A DNA stretch of 64,000 nucleotides from Deltaproteobacteria bacterium (GTDB lineage Bacteria > Bdellovibrionota_G > JALEGL01 > JAGRMV01). The stretch is taken from positions 8,167 to 72,166 of the forward strand of contig JAGRMV010000001.1 in assembly GCA_020441045.1 (NCBI GenBank), in the 5' to 3' direction. Below are positions 23,830 through 64,000 of this stretch, piece after piece. The position numbers and the translations under genes were made by a program. The stretch's first letter is position 1. Every line of letters begins with the position of its first letter. The notes beneath the pieces are model-generated. The model was not told the origin of the DNA and did not search any database. It saw only the letters and a list, made by a program, of their open reading frames with translations.

Positions 23830-26800
23830 ATGCCCAAAAAAAATTTATATTTGTTTTCTTTTCTGATTTTGGTCATTGGGATCACCTCTCTGAACACGCA
23901 AGTTATTGAACAAACCAGCCAAGAAGATCTGGGATTACTGAAAAGCAATATCTGGGGAGACATCGAAACAATATCTACAGACTCAACGATAAAAAACCGT
24001 GAGACCTTAACCGACATTCCAGGTGTATCGGCAGATCAAATCCGTATGCCTGGTGTGCATGCCGATGCTGATGCCTACGTTGATCTTTATAACAAACTCG
24101 AGCGCTATATTTTGGTGCATGAAATTGATGCCCGCGCCCCTTCGTTGGTTCAAAAGTATTTTGAACTCAAACATCACTATATCACTGATGAAGGTCCAGA
24201 AGTAAGTGCCGAAGGCTTTGCGCTCAAAGAAAAAATCCAACCCGAGATGACCGAAGTCATGCAAGGATACAAAGACACTTTTCGCGATGAAGTACAGCGC
24301 TTTGTCGATAACAATCTTAAGGTCATGTTACCCCAGCGCGAAGTCATTGTAGAAGAAATCCATCACCGCAATCAAGACCCTAGATCACAAACTCGTACCC
24401 AGAATAACAGTCCCATTGTCATTCGCTACGCAAATACCTCGATTCCATTTATTGAAATCGAAGGTATCAGCCTACAGGAAGCAACTGCACTAAAAAACGC
24501 CAAAAAAACCAAAAACATGGGATGGACCCGTATGGAAAAGGTTCAGCCCGTCAGCATCCACATGAATGATTCGGCTATGATTACCAATACCACACCATTA
24601 TATGGCAAACCTGGTCCAACCAGTCCCAACGGTAAATCCACCATGCTTGACGGATCAGGCACAACCATTGCCATTATTGATACAGGGATTGATTATACCC
24701 ACCCAGATTTAGGCGGATGCCTGGGCAATGCATGTAAAGTCATCGGTGGCTACGACTTCTACAACGACGATCCCGACCCTATGGATGAAAGATATCACGG
24801 AACGCACGTTGCTGCCATTGCAGCTGGAGTCGGCTCCTATACACAAGGCACCTATACCTATCCGATTCTTGGACAAGCACCTGGGGCAAGACTTTTTGCA
24901 TTGAAAGTCACCGATCCTGCTGGTTTTTCCACCAGTACACTTATCATCAATGCCATCGAAGCCAGCGCTGACCCCAATGGCGATGGCTTGTTCAATGATC
25001 GTGTTGATGTTGTCAACATCAGTATGGGCGGCGGTGGCAATCCGCTTGATTTACAAAGTGCGGCTCTGGATATGATTTCACAAACTGCCGAAATTCTTTT
25101 TGTTGTAAGTGCTGGCAACAATGGCCCCTATGGTCCGAGTATCTCAAGTCCAGGTGTTGCCGCTGAGGCCATCACTGTTGCTGCTGCCTGTGATGCCGAT
25201 CAAATTGGCAATGTCTCTTATACAGATTTACTAAGCGGGGAAGTGATTCAACTTTGCGATCAACCCATCGCACTTTTTTCGTCCCGTGGACCGGTGTTTT
25301 ATAATGGGGTCAATTACCAGAAACCTAATATTAGCGCACCAGGGGTGCAAATTTGTGCCGCCAGAAAAAGCGGGTATTCTGCCGCGGCCACATGCTTGGA
25401 CGCAGCACATATAGCCCTTGACGGTACCAGTATGGCGGCTCCACAAGTTGCTGGCATTGCTGCCATTTTACGCCAAATGGACCCAAACTTTACCAACCAA
25501 CAAATCAAAAATGCATTGTATACCTCGGCCATTGATTTGGGGATGGGAAACAATGCGCAAGGGCATGGCATGGTCGATGCGTTTGGTGCTTATAACGAAC
25601 TTTTCCCGTCTGCCAATTTAAGCTCGGGACTTGGAAGTTTTCAAATTCAAAACATGCCCCTGGTCTTAAACATCGATCCGATGTTTAAAGTCACCCAGTT
25701 TAGTCCTTTGATCGGCATAGAAAACCAAGCCAAATCTTCCGCATCATTTCAGTGGACAAGTCTAAACAACCTGCCACAAGGCATAACTTCGACGGCAGGC
25801 CCCTTATGGAACATTGCATCTGGTCAGATCGATGGCGTCCCGACCAATATTTTTGCCGATCATATGCAAATTCACAAAGGCAATTACTCCACCGACTTTT
25901 CTTTGGCACAAACCTTAAACAACAACACACTCAATTTCGATATTCCAGGTTATCTTCAAGTCCAACCCAAGCTCAAAGCCGACATTCAGAGTATTGATTT
26001 TGGTGTACACTCACCCAAAGACCCCAGTGGAAACTTCCTGCCATCACCGACCATTCTTTCGCAAAAGATTAAATTCGTAAACAAACTTTCAGATCATGGT
26101 CTGACCTATACCGTCAATGTATCCTCACTGCCCGCTGGTTTGGATGTCAGTCTACGTAGCTCGTTAAGTGGATCGGCCAGCTCATCTATTTATTTTGGCC
26201 CTGGCGTCGGCAAGTCTCGGATTTTACGAATCGACGTCGACAATACGATTGTCAAACCAGGCCGCTACGATGGCAAGTTAGAGTTAATTTCACCAAGCAA
26301 TGCCAATGGCGTCAGTGAAGTACTCAGCATTCCATTTACGGTATTTATTGGGTATCAAATCGAGTTCCATTTTCTCGGCACAGAAATTCCGTTTGAAGTA
26401 CAGCTCTTCCAGCCATATCAAAACGGCATGACCGAAACCGAATACAAACAGAAAAAAATCCATATTCCTTTTATCTTTGCGCCCAAAAGTGCGATCACAA
26501 CTTTTAATGTATTGGAACAAGGTACGCACTGGGCTTTGGCACAATACGCAAGTCAAGGCAACGAAAAATATCGATGGGTGATCAAGGAACAAATTCCTGT
26601 TTTCCAAAATGTGACCACTGTCAATATCGATATCAACCAATCTAATCACGTTCTGAATTTACAAGCCCTTGACCCAACAGGCAGCGATTTCAATCGATAT
26701 TGGACCCGACAAATCCGCTTGCTTAAAAAACAGCCCGGGCATGGCACTGTGTTTGTTGAAAACAATATCGTTTTGGGTGGTACCTCTTGGCCCAGCACAG

Positions 26801-28233
26801 ATGGGTTCATACGGATCAATGATCTATCAAGCGACTTTACCATAGCCATCAACTTCGGCGCCAGTCACCAAGGTGGATTAGGCGCTCCGGATTCTTATCT
26901 TTATCAAGGGTATCTCGCCAACGGAATTTTTACGGATAAAGCGTTGTTTGATTATACACAGCTCACGCAAAGAAAAATTCATACCCAAGTATTTGACCCA
27001 GCCATTCGCAGCGCAAGCTATCTAAACTATATTCGCGCTTTTCAACATCAACCGTCATATTCACCATATGGCGAAGCGTGGGATCCTCGCGGATATGGCA
27101 ACAGACTTGCGACCAATACAAATTTTGCCACGGTTTATGCACATGCCTTGATCGAAGCCGATCAGCCCCTGGCCAACAAAACATATCGTGACTGGCCGCT
27201 GCTGCATTTTTTCGCAGAAGACCTTTGGAACAATGCCAGCGGGAAAAAATATGATATTAAAAATAACTACGGCGGGATCGGGGTACTATTTGATCCTTTG
27301 CAAATGCGCATGATGAAGTTGTTAGATAGAGGAACGTTTTTCAAAGACATTCAAGTTCCACTGACAGAGTCCTATCTTTGGTCCCATGAGCTCCCCTTTC
27401 ATGACAACACCTTGATTCCTTTAGGCATTGGATTGGCAACCATCAAACCCGAGGCCAATTACTCGCCGGGTCTCATTCAAGGTTCCGGCATGGGGGCAGT
27501 ATCTCCCTTAATGATTCGTGTCGCCGGTGAAATGGCCGCAGGACCCTTTTCAAAATGTGGTGATTTTACAAACTGGGCAGGCAACGGCACAATGCCTGTC
27601 AACGATCCTTCCATTGCCAGCTGGGTCAACAGTCAGTCTTTTCCAGCTGTTAATTTCGGCAGCGTATGGGGATACTGGTACGCTGATCCTTTTGCAGGCG
27701 GCAGTGGCTCCGGAGAACTCAAAGTGCAATTTCAAGCCGATGTATGCGCTGAAGGGCAAAATCGTCTAGCACGGACTGTCTTGGTCAATCAGGTCGACTC
27801 TAGCACCTATACCGACACCCCTCCGTACCTGCAATCAGTTGTGTTGATGTCGCAAGGTTTGGACCCATATGTTCAAAACGGCATCACCACGACAGACAAG
27901 ATTGATTTGTATTTCCGAGCGTTATCGTCTCATCCTGAACATCTAGGACAAGGCGCGTATTTGGCATCGACCCACGAACTTCTCAATCAACCCGGCAATG
28001 TTCAAGTTCACATCAAAAAAGGATCGCAACAGTTTGCGCTGCCCTTTACGGTTGACGTTGATCCCAATGGCATCGACTTTCACGTCGAAATCGATCCAAC
28101 CTTATTGTTCGATCCATCTTATCCCGTCCCCAATGACGTGACCATGTCGATTTTATTGACCGATATACATGGCAATATCGCGCAACATGGGATTACCATC
28201 CCAGTCGTAAGCAGCTTACTTGAGGCGCCATAA
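23830..28233 (+). CDS. Secreted subtilisin-like serine protease (peptidase S8) with about 870-aa C-terminal extension of unknown function
   Basis: 1467 aa; signal peptide MPKKNLYLFSFLILVIGITSL. Catalytic triad regions IAIIDTGIDYTHPDL (Asp), HGTHVAAIAAG (His), GTSMAAPQVAGIAAIL (Ser). Confidence 0.8.
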   Translation: MPKKNLYLFSFLILVIGITSLNTQVIEQTSQEDLGLLKSNIWGDIETISTDSTIKNRETLTDIPGVSADQIRMPGVHADADAYVDLYNKLERYILVHEIDARAPSLVQKYFELKHHYITDEGPEVSAEGFALKEKIQPEMTEVMQGYKDTFRDEVQRFVDNNLKVMLPQREVIVEEIHHRNQDPRSQTRTQNNSPIVIRYANTSIPFIEIEGISLQEATALKNAKKTKNMGWTRMEKVQPVSIHMNDSAMITNTTPLYGKPGPTSPNGKSTMLDGSGTTIAIIDTGIDYTHPDLGGCLGNACKVIGGYDFYNDDPDPMDERYHGTHVAAIAAGVGSYTQGTYTYPILGQAPGARLFALKVTDPAGFSTSTLIINAIEASADPNGDGLFNDRVDVVNISMGGGGNPLDLQSAALDMISQTAEILFVVSAGNNGPYGPSISSPGVAAEAITVAAACDADQIGNVSYTDLLSGEVIQLCDQPIALFSSRGPVFYNGVNYQKPNISAPGVQICAARKSGYSAAATCLDAAHIALDGTSMAAPQVAGIAAILRQMDPNFTNQQIKNALYTSAIDLGMGNNAQGHGMVDAFGAYNELFPSANLSSGLGSFQIQNMPLVLNIDPMFKVTQFSPLIGIENQAKSSASFQWTSLNNLPQGITSTAGPLWNIASGQIDGVPTNIFADHMQIHKGNYSTDFSLAQTLNNNTLNFDIPGYLQVQPKLKADIQSIDFGVHSPKDPSGNFLPSPTILSQKIKFVNKLSDHGLTYTVNVSSLPAGLDVSLRSSLSGSASSSIYFGPGVGKSRILRIDVDNTIVKPGRYDGKLELISPSNANGVSEVLSIPFTVFIGYQIEFHFLGTEIPFEVQLFQPYQNGMTETEYKQKKIHIPFIFAPKSAITTFNVLEQGTHWALAQYASQGNEKYRWVIKEQIPVFQNVTTVNIDINQSNHVLNLQALDPTGSDFNRYWTRQIRLLKKQPGHGTVFVENNIVLGGTSWPSTDGFIRINDLSSDFTIAINFGASHQGGLGAPDSYLYQGYLANGIFTDKALFDYTQLTQRKIHTQVFDPAIRSASYLNYIRAFQHQPSYSPYGEAWDPRGYGNRLATNTNFATVYAHALIEADQPLANKTYRDWPLLHFFAEDLWNNASGKKYDIKNNYGGIGVLFDPLQMRMMKLLDRGTFFKDIQVPLTESYLWSHELPFHDNTLIPLGIGLATIKPEANYSPGLIQGSGMGAVSPLMIRVAGEMAAGPFSKCGDFTNWAGNGTMPVNDPSIASWVNSQSFPAVNFGSVWGYWYADPFAGGSGSGELKVQFQADVCAEGQNRLARTVLVNQVDSSTYTDTPPYLQSVVLMSQGLDPYVQNGITTTDKIDLYFRALSSHPEHLGQGAYLASTHELLNQPGNVQVHIKKGSQQFALPFTVDVDPNGIDFHVEIDPTLLFDPSYPVPNDVTMSILLTDIHGNIAQHGITIPVVSSLLEAP

Positions 28234-48239: not shown

Positions 48240-48414
48240 TTGTTGTCCCTCTTGAAAAAATAGAAGATCTCGGTATACCAAACATCCGCAATAAACCAAC
48301 CATGATTTTTGACCACATCCATACTTGATATCGCTACAGCAATGATTCTCCTTTGTTTTAAACTACTTAGACAAATGGTGTTGCGCGTTATGAGAAACCA
48401 TGCTACGAGCCCCC

Positions 48415-57976: not shown

Positions 57977-59279
57977 GTTGCAACCTCCTTTTGACCACCC
58001 CGCGAATGATAAAATACACCGGGATATTCAACAAACCAATTGCGACCAACAAACCAACCACATTCAACCCTAATGAAAGCATAACAATTCCAACTACGCT
58101 AGATAGAACCATAAAGCATGCGTTCATCACATTATTGGCTGCGATGATGCGTGATAAATATTTCTGATTTGAGCGATGCTGCATGATTGCATACAATGGA
58201 ACAATGTAAATACCTGAACACAGCGATAGCAAAAGCAAGCTTATCAAAATGAAAATACTCCATGATTGTTCTTGTAAAAATGTACTGATTGAAATCACCT
58301 GCATGGGATCAATCGAATTATTCTGGGTATAAAGCCAACTGAACAAGCCGAACAAAAATATTGATAGACTTATGCCAAAAGACCCAAATGGTACCAAACG
58401 TCCATTGATTTCACCACGCAAAAGCTTATTGCACAGTATAGATCCGACCCCGATTCCTATCGAGAAAATGGTCAGGAGCAAGGTCACAAGATATTCATTG
58501 CCACCAAGTACTTGTTTACAATAAATAGGAAACTGGGTGATAAATGTGGCACCAATCAGCCAAAACCACGAAATCGCAATAATTGAAAGCCATACCGTAT
58601 GTTCCTGTTTTGCGTAATGAATGATATTTTTGGTTTCTATGATTATGTTCCAACCTATACGCAGTGAAGGGTCTGAAACTTGGGTCTTTGGAATATAGCG
58701 GCTGGCCAGCCATCCGACGAACGCGCACACCACTACGATTGCACTGAGTATATAAATCCCAAAAGAAAAGCGGATCACAATACCTCCGATAATGGTGCCG
58801 AGCAATATCGCTAAAAATGTCCCCCCTTCAACATATGCATTACCGGGGATCAACTCGTCTTCATGCAAATGTTCAGGTAACAAGCTGTATTTGATGGGAC
58901 CAAAAAAAGTCGATTGCATACCCATAAAAAACAATATGATCAAAAGTCCCCAAACACTCTGCATATAAAATCCAGTAAAGCACAAGATCATAAGTACAAT
59001 TTCAACCATCTTAATGATGGTTGCTAGATTTGATTTTTCATAGCGATCTGCCATTTGTCCGGCGGTTGCTGAAAATAAGAAGAAAGGTAAAATAAATATA
59101 CCTGCCGCCAACGCCAAAAACTGTCCTTCATCCATGGGTACGCGATCAGACATTTCAAACGTAAACCAAATCAAAAAGGCATTTTTAAATGCATTATCAT
59201 TGAGCACACCTAAAAACTGGGTCAAAAACAATGGCAAAAATCGTCGATCGGTAAAAAGTCTAGATGTATTTTTTTTCAT
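57969..59279 (-). CDS. lplT: MFS lysophospholipid transporter LplT-like
   Basis: 436 aa, 12-TM MFS; immediately upstream of and overlapping aas, as in E. coli lplT-aas. Confidence 0.75.
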   Translation of the reverse strand: MKKNTSRLFTDRRFLPLFLTQFLGVLNDNAFKNAFLIWFTFEMSDRVPMDEGQFLALAAGIFILPFFLFSATAGQMADRYEKSNLATIIKMVEIVLMILCFTGFYMQSVWGLLIILFFMGMQSTFFGPIKYSLLPEHLHEDELIPGNAYVEGGTFLAILLGTIIGGIVIRFSFGIYILSAIVVVCAFVGWLASRYIPKTQVSDPSLRIGWNIIIETKNIIHYAKQEHTVWLSIIAISWFWLIGATFITQFPIYCKQVLGGNEYLVTLLLTIFSIGIGVGSILCNKLLRGEINGRLVPFGSFGISLSIFLFGLFSWLYTQNNSIDPMQVISISTFLQEQSWSIFILISLLLLSLCSGIYIVPLYAIMQHRSNQKYLSRIIAANNVMNACFMVLSSVVGIVMLSLGLNVVGLLVAIGLLNIPVYFIIRGVVKRRLQHA

Positions 59280-59297
59280 ACCATAACCTCATTTCTC

Positions 59298-59906
59298 TTA
59301 CGCATTTTGCGCTAATCCTGCAGTATAATGATCTACAAAATTGCCTACCAACATATTGATTTTGTCGGCTGCCCGACCTACGATATCAATGCGTCCACTT
59401 AAACTCAGTTGACATATCCCGTGGACACTGGCCCATATTACTTTTGCACTTTGTTCTGCGTTTTCTTGTTTTTTACAAAGTCCCATCATCAAGATCGATT
59501 CAATGATTTTAAACAGTTGATTGACTTTGATCAAATACCAATCCGGTAATACTTTTTGATGAACGGAGCGATATTCATATAAACATGACCAACGATTAAA
59601 ATGGTCTATAGCAAAATTGATATAGAGATCAGATACTTGCGCTAGCATTTTTTGGGGTGATTGGGCATGCAGCAATACCTTTTGCATTTTTTCAATAATT
59701 TCAGTTAAGGTTTGGGCATTGATACGCAAAATAAGTTCATCATAATTTTCGAATACATTATAGAGTGTTCCCACTGAATATCCAATTTCCTTGGCCACCC
59801 GCCTGGCACTAAATTTGGCAAAACCTGAGGTCTCTATCAATAAAGTACCGGCTGTGATCGCCATCTGCCGAATTTCATCTCTTGTATGATCGTATCTACG
59901 TGCCAC
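59298..59906 (-). CDS. TetR/AcrR-family transcriptional regulator (GTG start)
   Basis: 202 aa; N-terminal HTH …FSARRVAKEIGYSVGTLYNVFENYDEL…; divergent from the DUF2339-like gene. Confidence 0.8.
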   Translation of the reverse strand: MARRYDHTRDEIRQMAITAGTLLIETSGFAKFSARRVAKEIGYSVGTLYNVFENYDELILRINAQTLTEIIEKMQKVLLHAQSPQKMLAQVSDLYINFAIDHFNRWSCLYEYRSVHQKVLPDWYLIKVNQLFKIIESILMMGLCKKQENAEQSAKVIWASVHGICQLSLSGRIDIVGRAADKINMLVGNFVDHYTAGLAQNA

Positions 59907-59957
59907 TATTTATCCTTTATGTACATCGCGTACCCAGCCCATGGGGGCACATTTTTT

Positions 59958-59976
59958 AATTGAACACTGTTCAATT
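59958..59976. promoter_or_regulatory. Perfect 9-1-9 palindrome AATTGAACA-C-TGTTCAATT in the tetR/DUF2339 divergent intergenic region; candidate TetR operator
   Basis: Exact inverted repeat, 46 nt upstream of the 60022 ATG and 52 nt from the tetR start. Confidence 0.4.
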
Positions 59977-60021
59977 GTATGCTATTGTGAATACAAACGC
60001 AAGCCCAAAAAGGGAGAATTT

Positions 60022-62631
60022 ATGACAATCATTTTTATCATTGGATTAACCATCATCGTCTGTATCAACATCAGTCGCATCACTGCGCTCACCCAAAAAA
60101 TGAAGTTTTTAGAAAACAGGGTAAAGATGCTACAACATCGCTTGCATGCATCTGGCGACATTGCCCCCACGCAAAAATCAGAAAAGCCGTTGTCCTTCGA
60201 GGATAAAGTATCAACCATGTCGACGCCATTGCAAAACTTGAAACAGACGCAATACAATTTTCCAGAAACAACCCCAAAGTCCGAACCAAATTTTCAAGCT
60301 GCGCAAAAAACAAAAATCCCAAAAACCAAACGCGATCACCGATCACTCGAGCGCAAAATATTTTCACAGCTACCCATTTGGCTGGGTGGGATTGCTTTAA
60401 GTTTTGCAGGATTTTATCTGGTCAAATACTCTTTAGAAAACAACCTACTAAGCCCCGCAACTCGAATCATAATGGGAGCCATATTCGGTTTTACTCTTTT
60501 GGTTGTTTCGGGCTTCTTCCAATCTCCAAAGCATGCCATTAAATACATTAGAATTAAACAAGCTTTGGCTGGAGCAGGCATCGCTGTTTTGTACGCAAGT
60601 GTTTTTTCTGCCACCCATCTCTACAACCTAGTGGCAATACCTATTGGTTTTATGCTTATGGCCAGTATCACGATGATGGCGGTTTTTCTTTCACTTTTTT
60701 ATGGCGCGCCCATCGCTTTACTAGGTCTATTAGGTGGCTATTTAACACCCATATTTGTAGGCTCGCAAGATAGCTCGCTCACCACACTTTTGATTTATCT
60801 ATATTTTCTTTTTGTTGGATTTTTGTACGTCATTCTTCAACAAAAATGGTGGAAACTATTGCCGATCTCGGTGTTAAGCATATTGCTTTGGGTTGTCTTC
60901 AGCATAATTGGGGACTCAGCACATATGTATCACTCTAGTTTATCGGTCTTCTTGCTGTCGATTTGCACAACTTCGTTGATTTTTAGCAAGTTATTTAATG
61001 TCAAGGTACATGACAAAGCCAGTGCCCACCACACTATGATGGCACTTTTTGGGATCTCACTGGTATTGGTAGCTTATATGACTTCCGTTTTGAACTTCTC
61101 TACTTTGCAACTGATTTTATATGCTTTGCTCGCATTTTCATCGATGTTCTTAGCCTATGCAAGCCATGCAACGTACCGAACCTTACCTTGGATTGCGCTG
61201 ATCTCAATCGGAATAGGACTTGGATCTTGGCAAACCATGGCTGTTCGAGCTGTATTTTCCATTCATCTTATTTATTTTATCATCTTTGTCGGTGCTGGTC
61301 TGTGGATTGGCATAAGAAAGTTTCATGACCAAGGAGAATATTGGCTGACTTTTACCCTCGCTTCAGCTGTTACTTTATTTTCTACTCTTGCGTACAATTT
61401 GTATCAGGGTGATTTCGTACAACCCTTCGCCTTTTTTTGGCCAGCCATCACAACATTTTTTTATATCCCGCTTGGTTGGGTTCTATTGACAACCATTTCA
61501 AAGCGCAACATCAAAAATGAAAATATATTTATCCTCACAATTATTTCTTTGGTTTATGTTACAACCATAAGTTTTTGCCTTGAATTGGCTCAAGACTCGT
61601 GGCCCTTGTTGTTGGCCATAGAAGCGTTGATCATCAGTATGATTTATCGAAAAACCCGCATCACCCGTATCAAGTACATCGGTGTAATTTTGGGGATTGG
61701 TTTTTGCGTATTTACAATCCCTCAAATCATTGCGGGTATCAATCGATACCGCATGTACGCACATTGGCATAGAGCGCCATTGATGGCAAAATATCCTTTG
61801 ATTCACCTTGCAATACCGGCTTTGTTATTCTTCTTGGTAGGGAAAAACCACCACATGGTTACACGTGATTGGATCGCGAAGTTTTTTACCACTGTTGCCG
61901 TGCTAACCATTACAACGATGACCTACTTTATGACCCGACACCTATTTAGTCTAAATCACGAGGGTTTTGCTCGTAGTGTGTCCTTTTTAGAGCGTAGTAC
62001 GTGGACCAATATTGTCTTTGTTCTTGGACTTGGCAGCTTTTATCTTGGTCAAAAATTAGATATGGCGATACTGCAAACGCATGCCAAATGGCTTTTTGCT
62101 TTAGCTTGGGTGCGTATTCTAACTTTCGATGTTTTAGTTCTCAATCCCATATGGTCAAATGCGCATGTATATGGCATTGTCCCGATCAATACATTGTGTA
62201 TAACTTATCTGCTGCCCATATTTTTTACTACCCAATCCCTAACAAGATCCGTTTTTGATTCAAAACGCGCAGGCGTCTTATATACTTTTTCTTTTGTGCT
62301 GTTTTTTATGTGGATCACCACCAATATTCGTTTCTTTTTCCATCCCGATGCAATGATGCGAGGAACAACCAGCCATATCGAAATCTACACATATTCGATT
62401 GCATACTTATTGGTAAGCATCGGCCTTTTGGTTTATGGTTTAGCGGAAAAACATAAAGGTATTCGAAAAGCATCGATCGCTTTGATGACGTTGACGGTGA
62501 GTAAAGTTTTTCTATACGACGCTTCTAATCTAACCGGCATGTATCGTGTTCTCTCATTTTTAGGCCTTGGTATTTGCTTACTCACGATCAGCTTCATTTA
62601 TTCAAAATTTATCTTTAAGGACGAAACATAA
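60022..62631 (+). CDS. Large polytopic membrane protein (DUF2339-like), about 870 aa
   Basis: ATG at 60022, 5 nt after AGGGAG (the track ORF starts upstream at 59941); N-terminal TM plus coiled-coil/linker, then about 25 predicted TM helices. Confidence 0.55.
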   Translation: MTIIFIIGLTIIVCINISRITALTQKMKFLENRVKMLQHRLHASGDIAPTQKSEKPLSFEDKVSTMSTPLQNLKQTQYNFPETTPKSEPNFQAAQKTKIPKTKRDHRSLERKIFSQLPIWLGGIALSFAGFYLVKYSLENNLLSPATRIIMGAIFGFTLLVVSGFFQSPKHAIKYIRIKQALAGAGIAVLYASVFSATHLYNLVAIPIGFMLMASITMMAVFLSLFYGAPIALLGLLGGYLTPIFVGSQDSSLTTLLIYLYFLFVGFLYVILQQKWWKLLPISVLSILLWVVFSIIGDSAHMYHSSLSVFLLSICTTSLIFSKLFNVKVHDKASAHHTMMALFGISLVLVAYMTSVLNFSTLQLILYALLAFSSMFLAYASHATYRTLPWIALISIGIGLGSWQTMAVRAVFSIHLIYFIIFVGAGLWIGIRKFHDQGEYWLTFTLASAVTLFSTLAYNLYQGDFVQPFAFFWPAITTFFYIPLGWVLLTTISKRNIKNENIFILTIISLVYVTTISFCLELAQDSWPLLLAIEALIISMIYRKTRITRIKYIGVILGIGFCVFTIPQIIAGINRYRMYAHWHRAPLMAKYPLIHLAIPALLFFLVGKNHHMVTRDWIAKFFTTVAVLTITTMTYFMTRHLFSLNHEGFARSVSFLERSTWTNIVFVLGLGSFYLGQKLDMAILQTHAKWLFALAWVRILTFDVLVLNPIWSNAHVYGIVPINTLCITYLLPIFFTTQSLTRSVFDSKRAGVLYTFSFVLFFMWITTNIRFFFHPDAMMRGTTSHIEIYTYSIAYLLVSIGLLVYGLAEKHKGIRKASIALMTLTVSKVFLYDASNLTGMYRVLSFLGLGICLLTISFIYSKFIFKDET

Positions 62632-62694
62632 ATAAACTAAAACATGGCATAACGCAGTTGCATATTTTGACTCTATGTGCCTATAGTGTTTGCT

Positions 62695-64000
62695 ATGAGG
62701 GGCCTACGATTTTTTTTGTTTACCATCACAATCATTATCGCCAAGCTAAGCATATCTTTAGCACTGGAGGATGACCTATGCCGTGGGCCGAGTATGCCCC
62801 TGTTTGAGACCACTGCACAAATGACCGTTACCATTACTGCACCTTTTATAGATGGTTTATATACGCAAGAAAATCGTGACAAACGGGCCTTCAAAAGATT
62901 CAATCAACATATTCTGCTAACCGGTAGCGCGCCGATGGATGGTATGTCACCGGGTGAATTGATGCCTGATCTGGGTGATGATGGCACATTCAAAGGTCAT
63001 CTATCCATTCAAAGTGAAGGCGCCGATCTACAAACATACAATATGGAGATTGAACTTTCTGGCCGCAGCCGCGCTAGTGACACAGTTCGTTTCAAATATG
63101 CTCCATTTAAAATCAGTATCGATGGGCAAGACCTGGACCAAAACAGTATTTTGTATGGTAGCAATGGCACCAAAAAAAAGAAAAAAGCCAAAATCAAAAT
63201 TGTTCCCCAGCAAGTCTATGATTTGCCAGATGGCCCCGTTTTCTCAGACTCATTGCTTAAAGAATATTTTTCTTATGAGCTTTTGCATCTGCTGACCCAG
63301 CAATCGTTTAAAACAAAACTCGTTCATTTGAACTTGGTGGATAGCAACAGCGGTCAGGCATTAACAGAAATTCCTTTACAAGCGATTGTGATCGAACCCA
63401 CCAAAGCCTTTGAAGCCCGCTGCGATGTTTCTCATGTTGATCCAGATGATTGGATCGCCGAAGATCCCAACCAGCAAGAAGCGCAAACGCTTGCCTTTCA
63501 AAAACAGGCGCAACAATGGCAACAGTGGAGCCAAAAATTTCCCATACAAGTTCTGCGAATCATGACTTTCAATAAAATCATTGCGAATTCTGATACCTCA
63601 TTTTATGATCCTATGCTCCAGTTTGCTAGCGGTATTCCCCCATATCCGATCAAAAATACAAAATGGTACCAAACAAACAATGGCTGGATGCCAGTATCAT
63701 ATGATTTTAATGATTCACCTATGGTTGCCTATACACAGCAAGGCTGTAAGGACAAACAAATCTGCTGGCCACAATGGCGCCATAATAACAAAAGTCTTTT
63801 ACATGCACCCGTTTTAGACCATACCGATGATCCATCGGCGTATGCGAAAGTATTTGGTGAAGATTGGCCAAACATTCTGCCGCAAAAACGGTCAGAAGTT
63901 CAATCCATTGTACAACAGCTTTGCCAAGTCCTACCCCAATGGAAAACGATTTTGGTGCAACACAAAACACAAATGCACCAACCGACCAAGGTGGTCATGC
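62695..64000 (+). CDS. Secreted hypothetical protein, partial (runs off the right edge; not in the supplied ORF track)
   Basis: I translated this frame codon by codon: no stop from the TGA at 62668 to nt 64000 (at least 435 codons). ATG at 62695 gives a Sec-type signal MRGLRFFLFTITIIIAKLSISLA. Contains a poly-Lys patch TKKKKKAKIK and a Q/W-rich segment. Confidence 0.5.
   Translation, partial: MRGLRFFLFTITIIIAKLSISLALEDDLCRGPSMPLFETTAQMTVTITAPFIDGLYTQENRDKRAFKRFNQHILLTGSAPMDGMSPGELMPDLGDDGTFKGHLSIQSEGADLQTYNMEIELSGRSRASDTVRFKYAPFKISIDGQDLDQNSILYGSNGTKKKKKAKIKIVPQQVYDLPDGPVFSDSLLKEYFSYELLHLLTQQSFKTKLVHLNLVDSNSGQALTEIPLQAIVIEPTKAFEARCDVSHVDPDDWIAEDPNQQEAQTLAFQKQAQQWQQWSQKFPIQVLRIMTFNKIIANSDTSFYDPMLQFASGIPPYPIKNTKWYQTNNGWMPVSYDFNDSPMVAYTQQGCKDKQICWPQWRHNNKSLLHAPVLDHTDDPSAYAKVFGEDWPNILPQKRSEVQSIVQQLCQVLPQWKTILVQHKTQMHQPTKVVM

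What the first reader, a model, noticed from the sequence alone, without database searches (positions are those of the whole stretch)
62695..64000. Unlisted ORF of at least 435 aa for a secreted protein running off the right edge
In the frame 62695+3n I verified every codon to position 64000 and found no stop. The supplied track shows only short ORFs in other frames and strands here, presumably because this ORF has no stop inside the window. The N-terminus MRGLRFFLFTITIIIAKLSISLA is a typical Sec signal. The protein has a Lys-rich patch (TKKKKKAKIK) and a Q/W-rich stretch. It follows the DUF2339-like gene on the same strand.
Basis: seen in the sequence. Interest (0 to 1): 0.5.

Follow-up and report, generated by a model that had tools for sequence, protein, structure and literature searches.

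The report
Exported, highly divergent CotH-like kinase gene
The unlisted open frame is a real gene under purifying selection, encoding a 448-residue exported protein with the fold of the CotH atypical protein kinases; it belongs to a widespread bacterial family with no curated model, so it is a modest addition to a known enzyme class rather than something new in kind.

The parts
62632..62694 (+). 63-bp intergenic spacer between the DUF2339 gene and the target. It has no Shine-Dalgarno-like motif and no consensus sigma-70 match.
   Evidence: Sequence. The promoter scan found nothing here. 59 of 63 bases are identical, with no indels, in the sister genome L091.
62695..64000 (+). Coding sequence, codons 1-435 of 448, for an exported CotH-like protein (P0001). 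The stop codon lies 13 codons beyond the window.
   Evidence: Open frame; codon usage; exact match to the 448-aa NCBI protein; dN/dS 0.17.
62695..62763 (+). Predicted Sec signal peptide, aa 1-23 (MRGLR / FFLFTITIIIA / KLSISLA), with a likely cleavage after S-L-A.
   Evidence: The only hydrophobic segment in the protein (Kyte-Doolittle). There is no lipobox. 93 of 104 family members have an equivalent N-terminus. The cleavage site is inferred from the -3/-1 rule and was not predicted with a dedicated tool.
62800..63429 (+). N-lobe of the kinase-like fold (aa 36-245). It includes a target-specific low-confidence insertion at about aa 52-95 and the 'RG' loop, which is S122-G123 here (nt 63055-63072).
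   Evidence: Family HMM alignment over aa 87-268. hhalign to authentic CotH: probability 81%, E 1.2e-5. Strand and helix order from the model.
63169..63204 (+). Lys-rich patch TKKKKKAKIKIV (aa 159-170). Its end is the beta3 strand with invariant K168 (nt 63196-63198). It is encoded by an A8-G-A6 tract.
   Evidence: K168 is invariant in 104 of 104 sequences. Strand 165-171 in the model. The nucleotides are identical in the sister genome.
63262..63264 (+). E190, an invariant Glu on the alphaC-like helix (aa 186-200), the putative partner of K168.
   Evidence: Invariant in 104 of 104. Helix 186-200 in the model. The pairing itself is inferred because no coordinates were available.
63439..63537 (+). 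Acidic, Q/W-rich insertion (aa 249-281) between the lobes, predicted helical. It is shared only with the Bdellovibrionales relatives P0002 and P0003.
   Evidence: Alignment A1. Helix 260-281 in the model.
63580..63657 (+). Catalytic-loop equivalent (aa 296-321): I-A-N298-S-D300, a 13-residue target-specific insertion, then K-N321.
   Evidence: N298 and N321 are invariant and D300 is 99% conserved. The loop lies between the alphaE-like helix 283-295 and strands 322-327 and 330-335. The family hN..PYDFD block maps onto CotH HN..PWDYD.
63700..63711 (+). Y336-D337-F338-N339, the DFG-equivalent metal-binding motif. The family consensus is PYDFD. The target has Asn at the second Asp and Ser in place of the preceding Pro.
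   Evidence: Y, D and F are invariant. D339 is 100% Asp in the other 103 members but Asn in the target. An authentic Planococcus CotH-family protein has WDFNNS, with the same change.
63727..64000 (+). C-terminal helical region (aa 345-435 of 448). It has no significant similarity to the family's C-terminus and model confidence is low to moderate.
   Evidence: The family HMM alignment ends at aa 344. pLDDT is 40-64 and the region is helical.

Best explanation
The ORF encodes a Sec-exported protein of 448 residues (about 425 after signal cleavage) with the atypical protein-kinase-like fold of the CotH/FAM20 branch. It is a fast-evolving Bdellovibrionota member of a large uncharacterised family of exported proteins of about 350 aa, with consensus motifs RG..R, KLKLV, lkEYlaYk, flIE, IGNtDws..hN and vPYDFDxSG. 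Proposed mechanism (inferred): after export, the N-lobe Lys168-Glu190 pair and the RG loop hold a nucleotide. Asn321 and Asp337 bind the metal. Asp300 acts as the catalytic base that transfers the gamma-phosphate to a hydroxyl group of an extracytoplasmic substrate. The substrate is most likely a protein, by analogy with CotH and Fam20C. Shown here: the gene is real and under purifying selection; the protein belongs to this family; the fold is closest to CotH; the motif residues are conserved; the family is exported. Inferred: catalytic activity, phosphate donor, substrate, and where the enzyme acts (own envelope, medium, or prey).
Against: The target itself has no hit to Pfam CotH even at E<=10, nor to any PDB sequence. 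Only about 3 of 104 family members reach Pfam's gathering level. The target has uniquely lost residues that are at least 99% conserved in the family: R122 to S (this Arg is also invariant in the 7 authentic CotH proteins), C132 to R, C173 to Q, P335 to S, D339 to N and G342 to P. It also carries a 13-residue insertion between D300 and N321, so it may be catalytically dead. CotH's invariant KK (K54/K55) has no counterpart in the family, where PP occupies that position, so nucleotide binding may differ. Mapping of the catalytic Asp (D300 to CotH D223/D228) is not reproduced by the weak profile alignments, which shift it by a few residues. From my own knowledge, the Gram-negative periplasm is not known to contain ATP, which makes the phosphate donor and the site of action unclear. 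No conserved gene neighbour points to a substrate. No model coordinates were available, so active-site geometry was not checked.
Confidence: 0.6

Rival explanations
1. Exported pseudokinase. The protein keeps the CotH-like fold but no longer transfers phosphate, and acts as a binding, scaffold or adhesin-type protein. Fungal CotH proteins are likewise discussed mainly as surface ligands.
For: Target-specific loss of R122, which is invariant both in the family and in 7 authentic CotH proteins. D339 to N, G342 to P and P335 to S flank the metal-binding Asp. There is a 13-residue insertion inside the catalytic loop. The target is the family outlier, with median identity 18.9% against 29.2% among the other members. 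It scores 83.6 bits, whereas other members scored at least 220 bits against the seed HMM.
Against: All nine strictly invariant positions, including the K168/E190/N298/N321/D337 set, plus D300, are retained after extensive divergence. The gene is under purifying selection, dN/dS 0.17. The same second-Asp to Asn change occurs in an annotated Planococcus CotH-family protein. R124 and R126 lie next to the lost R122 and might substitute for it.
Confidence: 0.25
2. An active kinase whose substrate is not a protein but a lipid, glycan or small molecule of the envelope or of prey. The precedents are Fam20B xylosylkinase, PI4K and MavQ.
Against: The closest structural and sequence relative by a wide margin is CotH, a Ser/Thr protein kinase (PMC7821199). 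Nothing in the gene neighbourhood points to lipid or glycan metabolism that is conserved across the family.
Confidence: 0.12
3. A functional partner of the upstream DUF2339 membrane protein, co-transcribed with it as a two-gene module.
For: Same strand with a 63-bp gap, and no terminator-like or promoter-like site between the two genes.
Against: The nearest relatives P0002 and P0003 are monocistronic, between oppositely oriented genes, with no DUF2339 nearby. No neighbour family recurs in more than 6 of the 80 loci. In the sister genome the DUF2339 gene carries at least 40 indel events, while the target has none.
Confidence: 0.05
4. A spurious open frame that is not a gene.
For: No Shine-Dalgarno motif and no recognisable promoter upstream. 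No database family hit for the target alone.
Against: Stop-free by chance at about 1e-11. Codon score is within 1 sd of the window's genes. dN/dS 0.17. Significant family homology. A confident kinase-like model.
Confidence: 0.01

Closest known systems
CotH spore-coat protein kinase family (Pfam PF08757; structures 5JD9/5JDA of B. cereus CotH)
   Different: The target does not hit the Pfam model at all and only about 3% of its family reach the gathering score. The family has PP where CotH has its invariant KK. It has its own invariant Lys (K168) and Glu (E190), which authentic CotH does not conserve at the aligned positions. The D-to-N spacing is 8 in the family and 21 in the target, against 5 in CotH. 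The family has a conserved disulfide-type Cys pair. B. subtilis and B. cereus CotH have no signal peptide and act in the mother cell (PMC7821199). The polyphosphate-polymerase/DUF4956 neighbours seen next to three plasmid CotH genes are absent here.
Fam20C / secretory-pathway kinases (FAM20 family)
   Different: They are eukaryotic, Golgi-lumen enzymes supplied with imported ATP. No detectable sequence similarity. The structural score is much lower than for CotH.
Helicobacter pylori CtkA (JHP0940), a secreted pro-inflammatory Ser/Thr kinase
   Different: 8% identity, no shared family motifs, and a different lineage. Its structural score is clearly below that of CotH.
HipA toxin kinases and PI3K/PI4K lipid kinases
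   Different: They are cytoplasmic, with different accessory domains and motifs, and no sequence-level link.

Membership tests
Pfam CotH (PF08757) | The sequence scores at or above the curated gathering score (23.8 bits) against the CotH HMM. | tested here: not met
   The target has no hit even at E<=10. Within its family, 22 of 104 hit at E<0.01 but only 3 of 104 at about the gathering level.
Pfam CotH (PF08757) | CotH-type atypical kinase fold. | tested here: met
Pfam CotH (PF08757) | Catalytic Asp (B. subtilis D228 in QN[YF]DGFVHN; D228Q is inactive) and the following Asn. | tested here: inconclusive
   The target has N298-S-D300 and N321 at invariant or 99%-conserved family positions, in the topologically right place. 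N321 maps to the CotH HN motif. The weak profile alignments do not place D300 exactly on the CotH Asp, and the D-to-N spacing differs. D228Q is from PMC7821199.
Pfam CotH (PF08757) | W-D-x-D metal-binding motif after beta8. | tested here: met
   The first Asp (D337) is present in Y-D-F-N and aligns to CotH W-D-Y-D. The second Asp is Asn in the target, as in the Planococcus CotH-family protein, WDFNNS.
Pfam CotH (PF08757) | Invariant R-G and K-K(S-Y) motifs of the N-lobe. | tested here: not met
   The 7 authentic CotH proteins have invariant R45, G46, K54 and K55. The target has S122-G123. Its family has RG but PP in place of KK.
Protein-kinase-like (PKL) superfamily | Bilobal fold with a beta3 Lys, an alphaC Glu, a catalytic-loop Asp and Asn, and a DFG-type Asp. 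| tested here: met
Uncurated 'PYDFD' family of exported CotH-like proteins (defined here, alignment A3) | Significant score against a family HMM built without the target. | tested here: met
Uncurated 'PYDFD' family of exported CotH-like proteins (defined here, alignment A3) | All strictly invariant residues are present (G123, K168, E190, Y194, N298, N321, Y336, D337, F338). | tested here: met
Uncurated 'PYDFD' family of exported CotH-like proteins (defined here, alignment A3) | Near-invariant (at least 99%) residues: R122, the Cys pair C132/C173, P335 and D339. | tested here: not met
   The target has S, R/Q, S and N at these positions. It is therefore an aberrant, long-branch member.
Uncurated 'PYDFD' family of exported CotH-like proteins (defined here, alignment A3) | N-terminal signal peptide. 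| tested here: met
   A hydrophobic N-terminus in 93 of 104 members, including the target. This is a heuristic; SignalP was not available.

The most novel reading that the evidence does not exclude
The target and its more than 100 relatives form a previously unrecognised, phylogenetically broad family of Sec-exported kinases in Gram-negative bacteria. They would carry out extracytoplasmic phosphorylation, which is essentially undocumented in bacteria. The fast-evolving Bdellovibrionota version, with its own insertions and its remodelled RG and DFD motifs, would be a predation or host-interaction effector that phosphorylates prey envelope or cytoplasmic targets, using ATP from the prey or another donor.
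Probability: 0.1. Interest if true: 0.7.

Novelty: new variant of a known kind. Interest (0 to 1): 0.35.

Why it matters
If the family is catalytically active, it would add an exported bacterial branch to the CotH/FAM20 group of atypical kinases. It would also raise a concrete question: where does a Sec-exported kinase in a Gram-negative bacterium get its phosphate donor, and what does it phosphorylate? On the practical side, over 100 'hypothetical proteins' across Bacteroidota, Gammaproteobacteria, Acidobacteriota and Bdellovibrionota could be annotated as CotH-like, because Pfam currently captures only about 3% of them and NCBIfam none. For this window specifically, the result is mainly an annotation fix: a real gene was missed because it runs off the edge.

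Tried and rejected
Direct family searches with the target gave nothing useful: Pfam, NCBIfam and PADLOC returned no hits, and PHROGs returned only a tail-fiber hit at E 0.065, which I treated as noise. PDB sequence searches with the target and with both family profiles found nothing meaningful. The word-indexed protein search with the target found only itself, and with the A1 profile it added just one sequence. The first genome scan, using target-specific peptides, found nothing. The single-sequence AlphaFold model was unusable, with pLDDT 37.6. hhalign of the family against one CotH sequence was insensitive, at probability 2.6%, so I built a 7-member CotH profile from plasmid records. The AFDB fold library was not available. 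Nguyen et al. 2016, the primary CotH structure paper, is not held, so CotH residue roles rest on PMC7821199 plus the conservation I computed. I wrote the B. subtilis CotH bait sequence from memory and used it only to retrieve the authentic 5JD9 chain. Look-ups for the window's own contig failed, so the downstream context comes from the sister genome. Conserved-neighbour analysis over 80 loci gave no recurrent partner. I considered and rejected an operon with DUF2339, a lipoprotein (no lipobox), a mobile-element or defence context, and paralogues within the window (none).

Full report
OBSERVATION. Translating window 62695-64000 on the + strand gives 435 codons with no stop, beginning MRGLRFFLFTITIIIAKLSISLA. 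The other five frames of the same stretch hold 12-34 stops each. With the local base composition, a stop-free run of this length is expected with probability about 9e-12. An in-frame TGA lies at 62668, and ATG 62695 is the first ATG after it. I trained a codon log-odds score on 29 long ORFs of the same window. It gives +0.189 per codon for this frame, against a mean of 0.218 (sd 0.046) for the training genes. All alternative frames score between -0.25 and -0.48, and the short ORFs listed here by the mechanical ORF finder score between -0.30 and +0.005. The ORF is unlisted simply because the ORF tool omits ORFs that run off the end of the source.

FULL LENGTH AND SELECTION. The fragment is 100% identical to a 448-aa NCBI protein, MCB1196786.1 (locus tag KDK51_00300, 'Deltaproteobacteria bacterium' MAG, contig of 77 kb), so only 13 residues lie beyond the window. 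Its 90% cluster contains a second protein, P0019, from a 'Bdellovibrionota bacterium' MAG, with 434 of 448 residues identical. I retrieved the contig carrying P0019 as L091. Across the 435 shared codons there are 36 nucleotide differences and no indels. 22 of the differences are at third positions, giving dS 0.084, dN 0.014 and dN/dS 0.17. The stop is a TAG, and the next gene is convergent, only 22 nt away. This is a real gene under purifying selection, and it ends its transcription unit.

ANATOMY OF THE TARGET. Residues 1-23 form the only hydrophobic segment in the protein. They have a basic n-region and an S-L-A motif before the likely cleavage site, and there is no lipobox. The order of predicted elements is that of a kinase core:
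- Strands 98-107 and 113-121, then the RG loop, then strand 138-142.
- Strand 165-171, which carries K168.
- Helix 186-200, which carries E190.
- Strands 207-216 and 228-233, followed by E234.
- Helix 283-295, then N298-S-D300.
- N321 immediately before strands 322-327 and 330-335, then Y336-D337-F338.
The 'Q/W-rich stretch' (aa 249-281) is an inter-lobe insertion shared only with P0002 and P0003. Those two relatives also share Cys243, and a Cys seven residues before the conserved LF motif, which is Cys29 in the target.

The target is the outlier of its family. Its median identity to the other members is 18.9%, against 29.2% among the others. It alone has changed residues that are at least 99% conserved in the rest of the family:
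- R122 to S. This Arg is also invariant in authentic CotH.
- Both members of the Cys pair C132/C173, to R and Q.
- P335 to S, D339 to N and G342 to P.
It also has about 40 extra residues at positions 52-95, 13 extra residues inside the catalytic loop, and a C-terminal 100 residues with no detectable similarity to the family. The D339N change also occurs in the annotated Planococcus CotH-family protein, which has WDFNNS.

EXPORT. 93 of 104 members start with a signal-peptide-like hydrophobic stretch, and the family conserves a Cys pair, so the family as a whole is extracytoplasmic. This differs from Bacillus CotH, which acts in the mother cell (PMC7821199).

CONTEXT. The window is ordinary chromosome. 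It carries PBP/dcw genes, PriA, a Bat operon, a 1467-aa subtilase, an AcrB pump, Aas and LplT, and a TetR regulator. There are no tRNA genes and no Rfam hits. The target follows a DUF2339 membrane-protein gene after a 63-bp gap, but this adjacency is not conserved. P0002 and P0003 stand alone between oppositely oriented genes. Among 271 neighbours in the 80 loci, no neighbour family recurs in more than 6 loci. In the sister genome the DUF2339 gene carries at least 40 indel events while the target has none. Some Bacteroidota genomes carry tandem arrays of the family, with five copies in L063 and three in L062.

MECHANISM. The best-supported reading, with confidence about 0.6, is a Sec-exported CotH-like phosphotransferase. 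K168 and E190 would position the nucleotide, N321 and D337 would bind the metal, and D300 would act as the catalytic base on an extracytoplasmic, probably protein, substrate. The fold, the family membership, the residue conservation, the selection and the export signal are shown. Catalysis, donor, substrate and site of action are inferred. The main rival, at about 0.25, is a pseudokinase, given the target-specific losses around the RG loop and the DFD motif. A lipid or glycan kinase is a lesser rival. A caveat from general knowledge is that the Gram-negative periplasm is not known to hold ATP. An exported kinase would therefore have to act outside the cell, inside prey or a host, or use another donor.

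NOVELTY AND VERDICT. The kind of protein is known: the CotH/FAM20-type atypical kinase, including exported forms. What is not curated is this particular family. Pfam captures about 3% of it and NCBIfam none, and I found no paper on it. The family has its own invariant Lys/Glu pair, a PYDFD motif and a disulfide-type Cys pair, and it lacks CotH's KK motif. The target is an aberrant, long-branch Bdellovibrionota member. I rate it a new variant of a known kind, with interest 0.35. It is a useful annotation and a reasonable lead for kinase specialists, but it is not surprising in kind.

Noticed in passing
window 55004-64000 compared with L091 2376-11306: In the sister Bdellovibrionota genome, small indels cluster in four genes. 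The Rce1-like 247-aa ORF (55095-55838) has 14 events, MFS/LplT (57969-59279) has 24, TetR (59298-59906) has 21, and DUF2339 (59941-62631) has at least 40. Aas (55841-57976) and the target have none, and the transitions fall exactly at gene borders. This could be gene-by-gene pseudogenisation in the sister lineage or patchy assembly error.
   Followed up: partly
L083 2545-5684; L085 931-3787; L086 2435-5245: Annotated CotH-kinase-family genes on plasmids of Pseudobutyrivibrio, Planococcus and Deinococcus each sit next to a 'polyphosphate polymerase domain' gene and a DUF4956 gene. The trio recurs across three phyla and might bear on the phosphate donor of exported CotH-like enzymes. It is not present near the target.
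   Followed up: no
L063 3623-9149; L062 7809-11443; also L069, L037, L075, L029, L001: The exported CotH-like family occurs as head-to-tail tandem arrays in some Bacteroidota genomes, with five consecutive paralogues in a Phaeodactylibacter MAG and three in a Bacteroidales MAG. This suggests lineage-specific expansion.
   Followed up: no
window 63169-63204: The Lys-rich patch is encoded by an A8-G-A6 tract (ACCAAAAAAAAGAAAAAAGCC). Such a tract could be slippage-prone, but it is identical in length and sequence in the sister genome.
   Followed up: partly
window 55841-59279 (-): The LplT-like MFS ORF (57969-59279) and the Aas acyltransferase/acyl-ACP synthetase ORF (55841-57976) overlap by 8 nt. 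Together they cover, end to end, NCBIfam model PRK06814, a single fused 1140-aa acyl-[ACP]-phospholipid O-acyltransferase: positions 3-421 and 427-1130. The gene pair here is therefore either split or unfused.
   Followed up: no
window 23830-28233 (+); L091 15978-17810: A very large (1467 aa) subtilase-family protein is encoded in the window. Only residues 275-580 are explained by Peptidase_S8, so about 1100 residues are unassigned. Another S8 peptidase lies about 4.6 kb downstream of the target's orthologue in the sister genome.
   Followed up: no
window 48400-49803 (+), 53246-54568 (-); L091 11369-12301 (-): Two long window ORFs (467 and 440 aa), and the 310-aa gene convergent with the target's orthologue, have no Pfam match at E<=1e-3.
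   Followed up: no
window 62632-62694: The target has no Shine-Dalgarno-like sequence. A TATAGT hexamer ends 7 nt before the ATG (sequence), which would fit a leaderless or near-leaderless transcript. No matching -35 element passed the scan.
   Followed up: no
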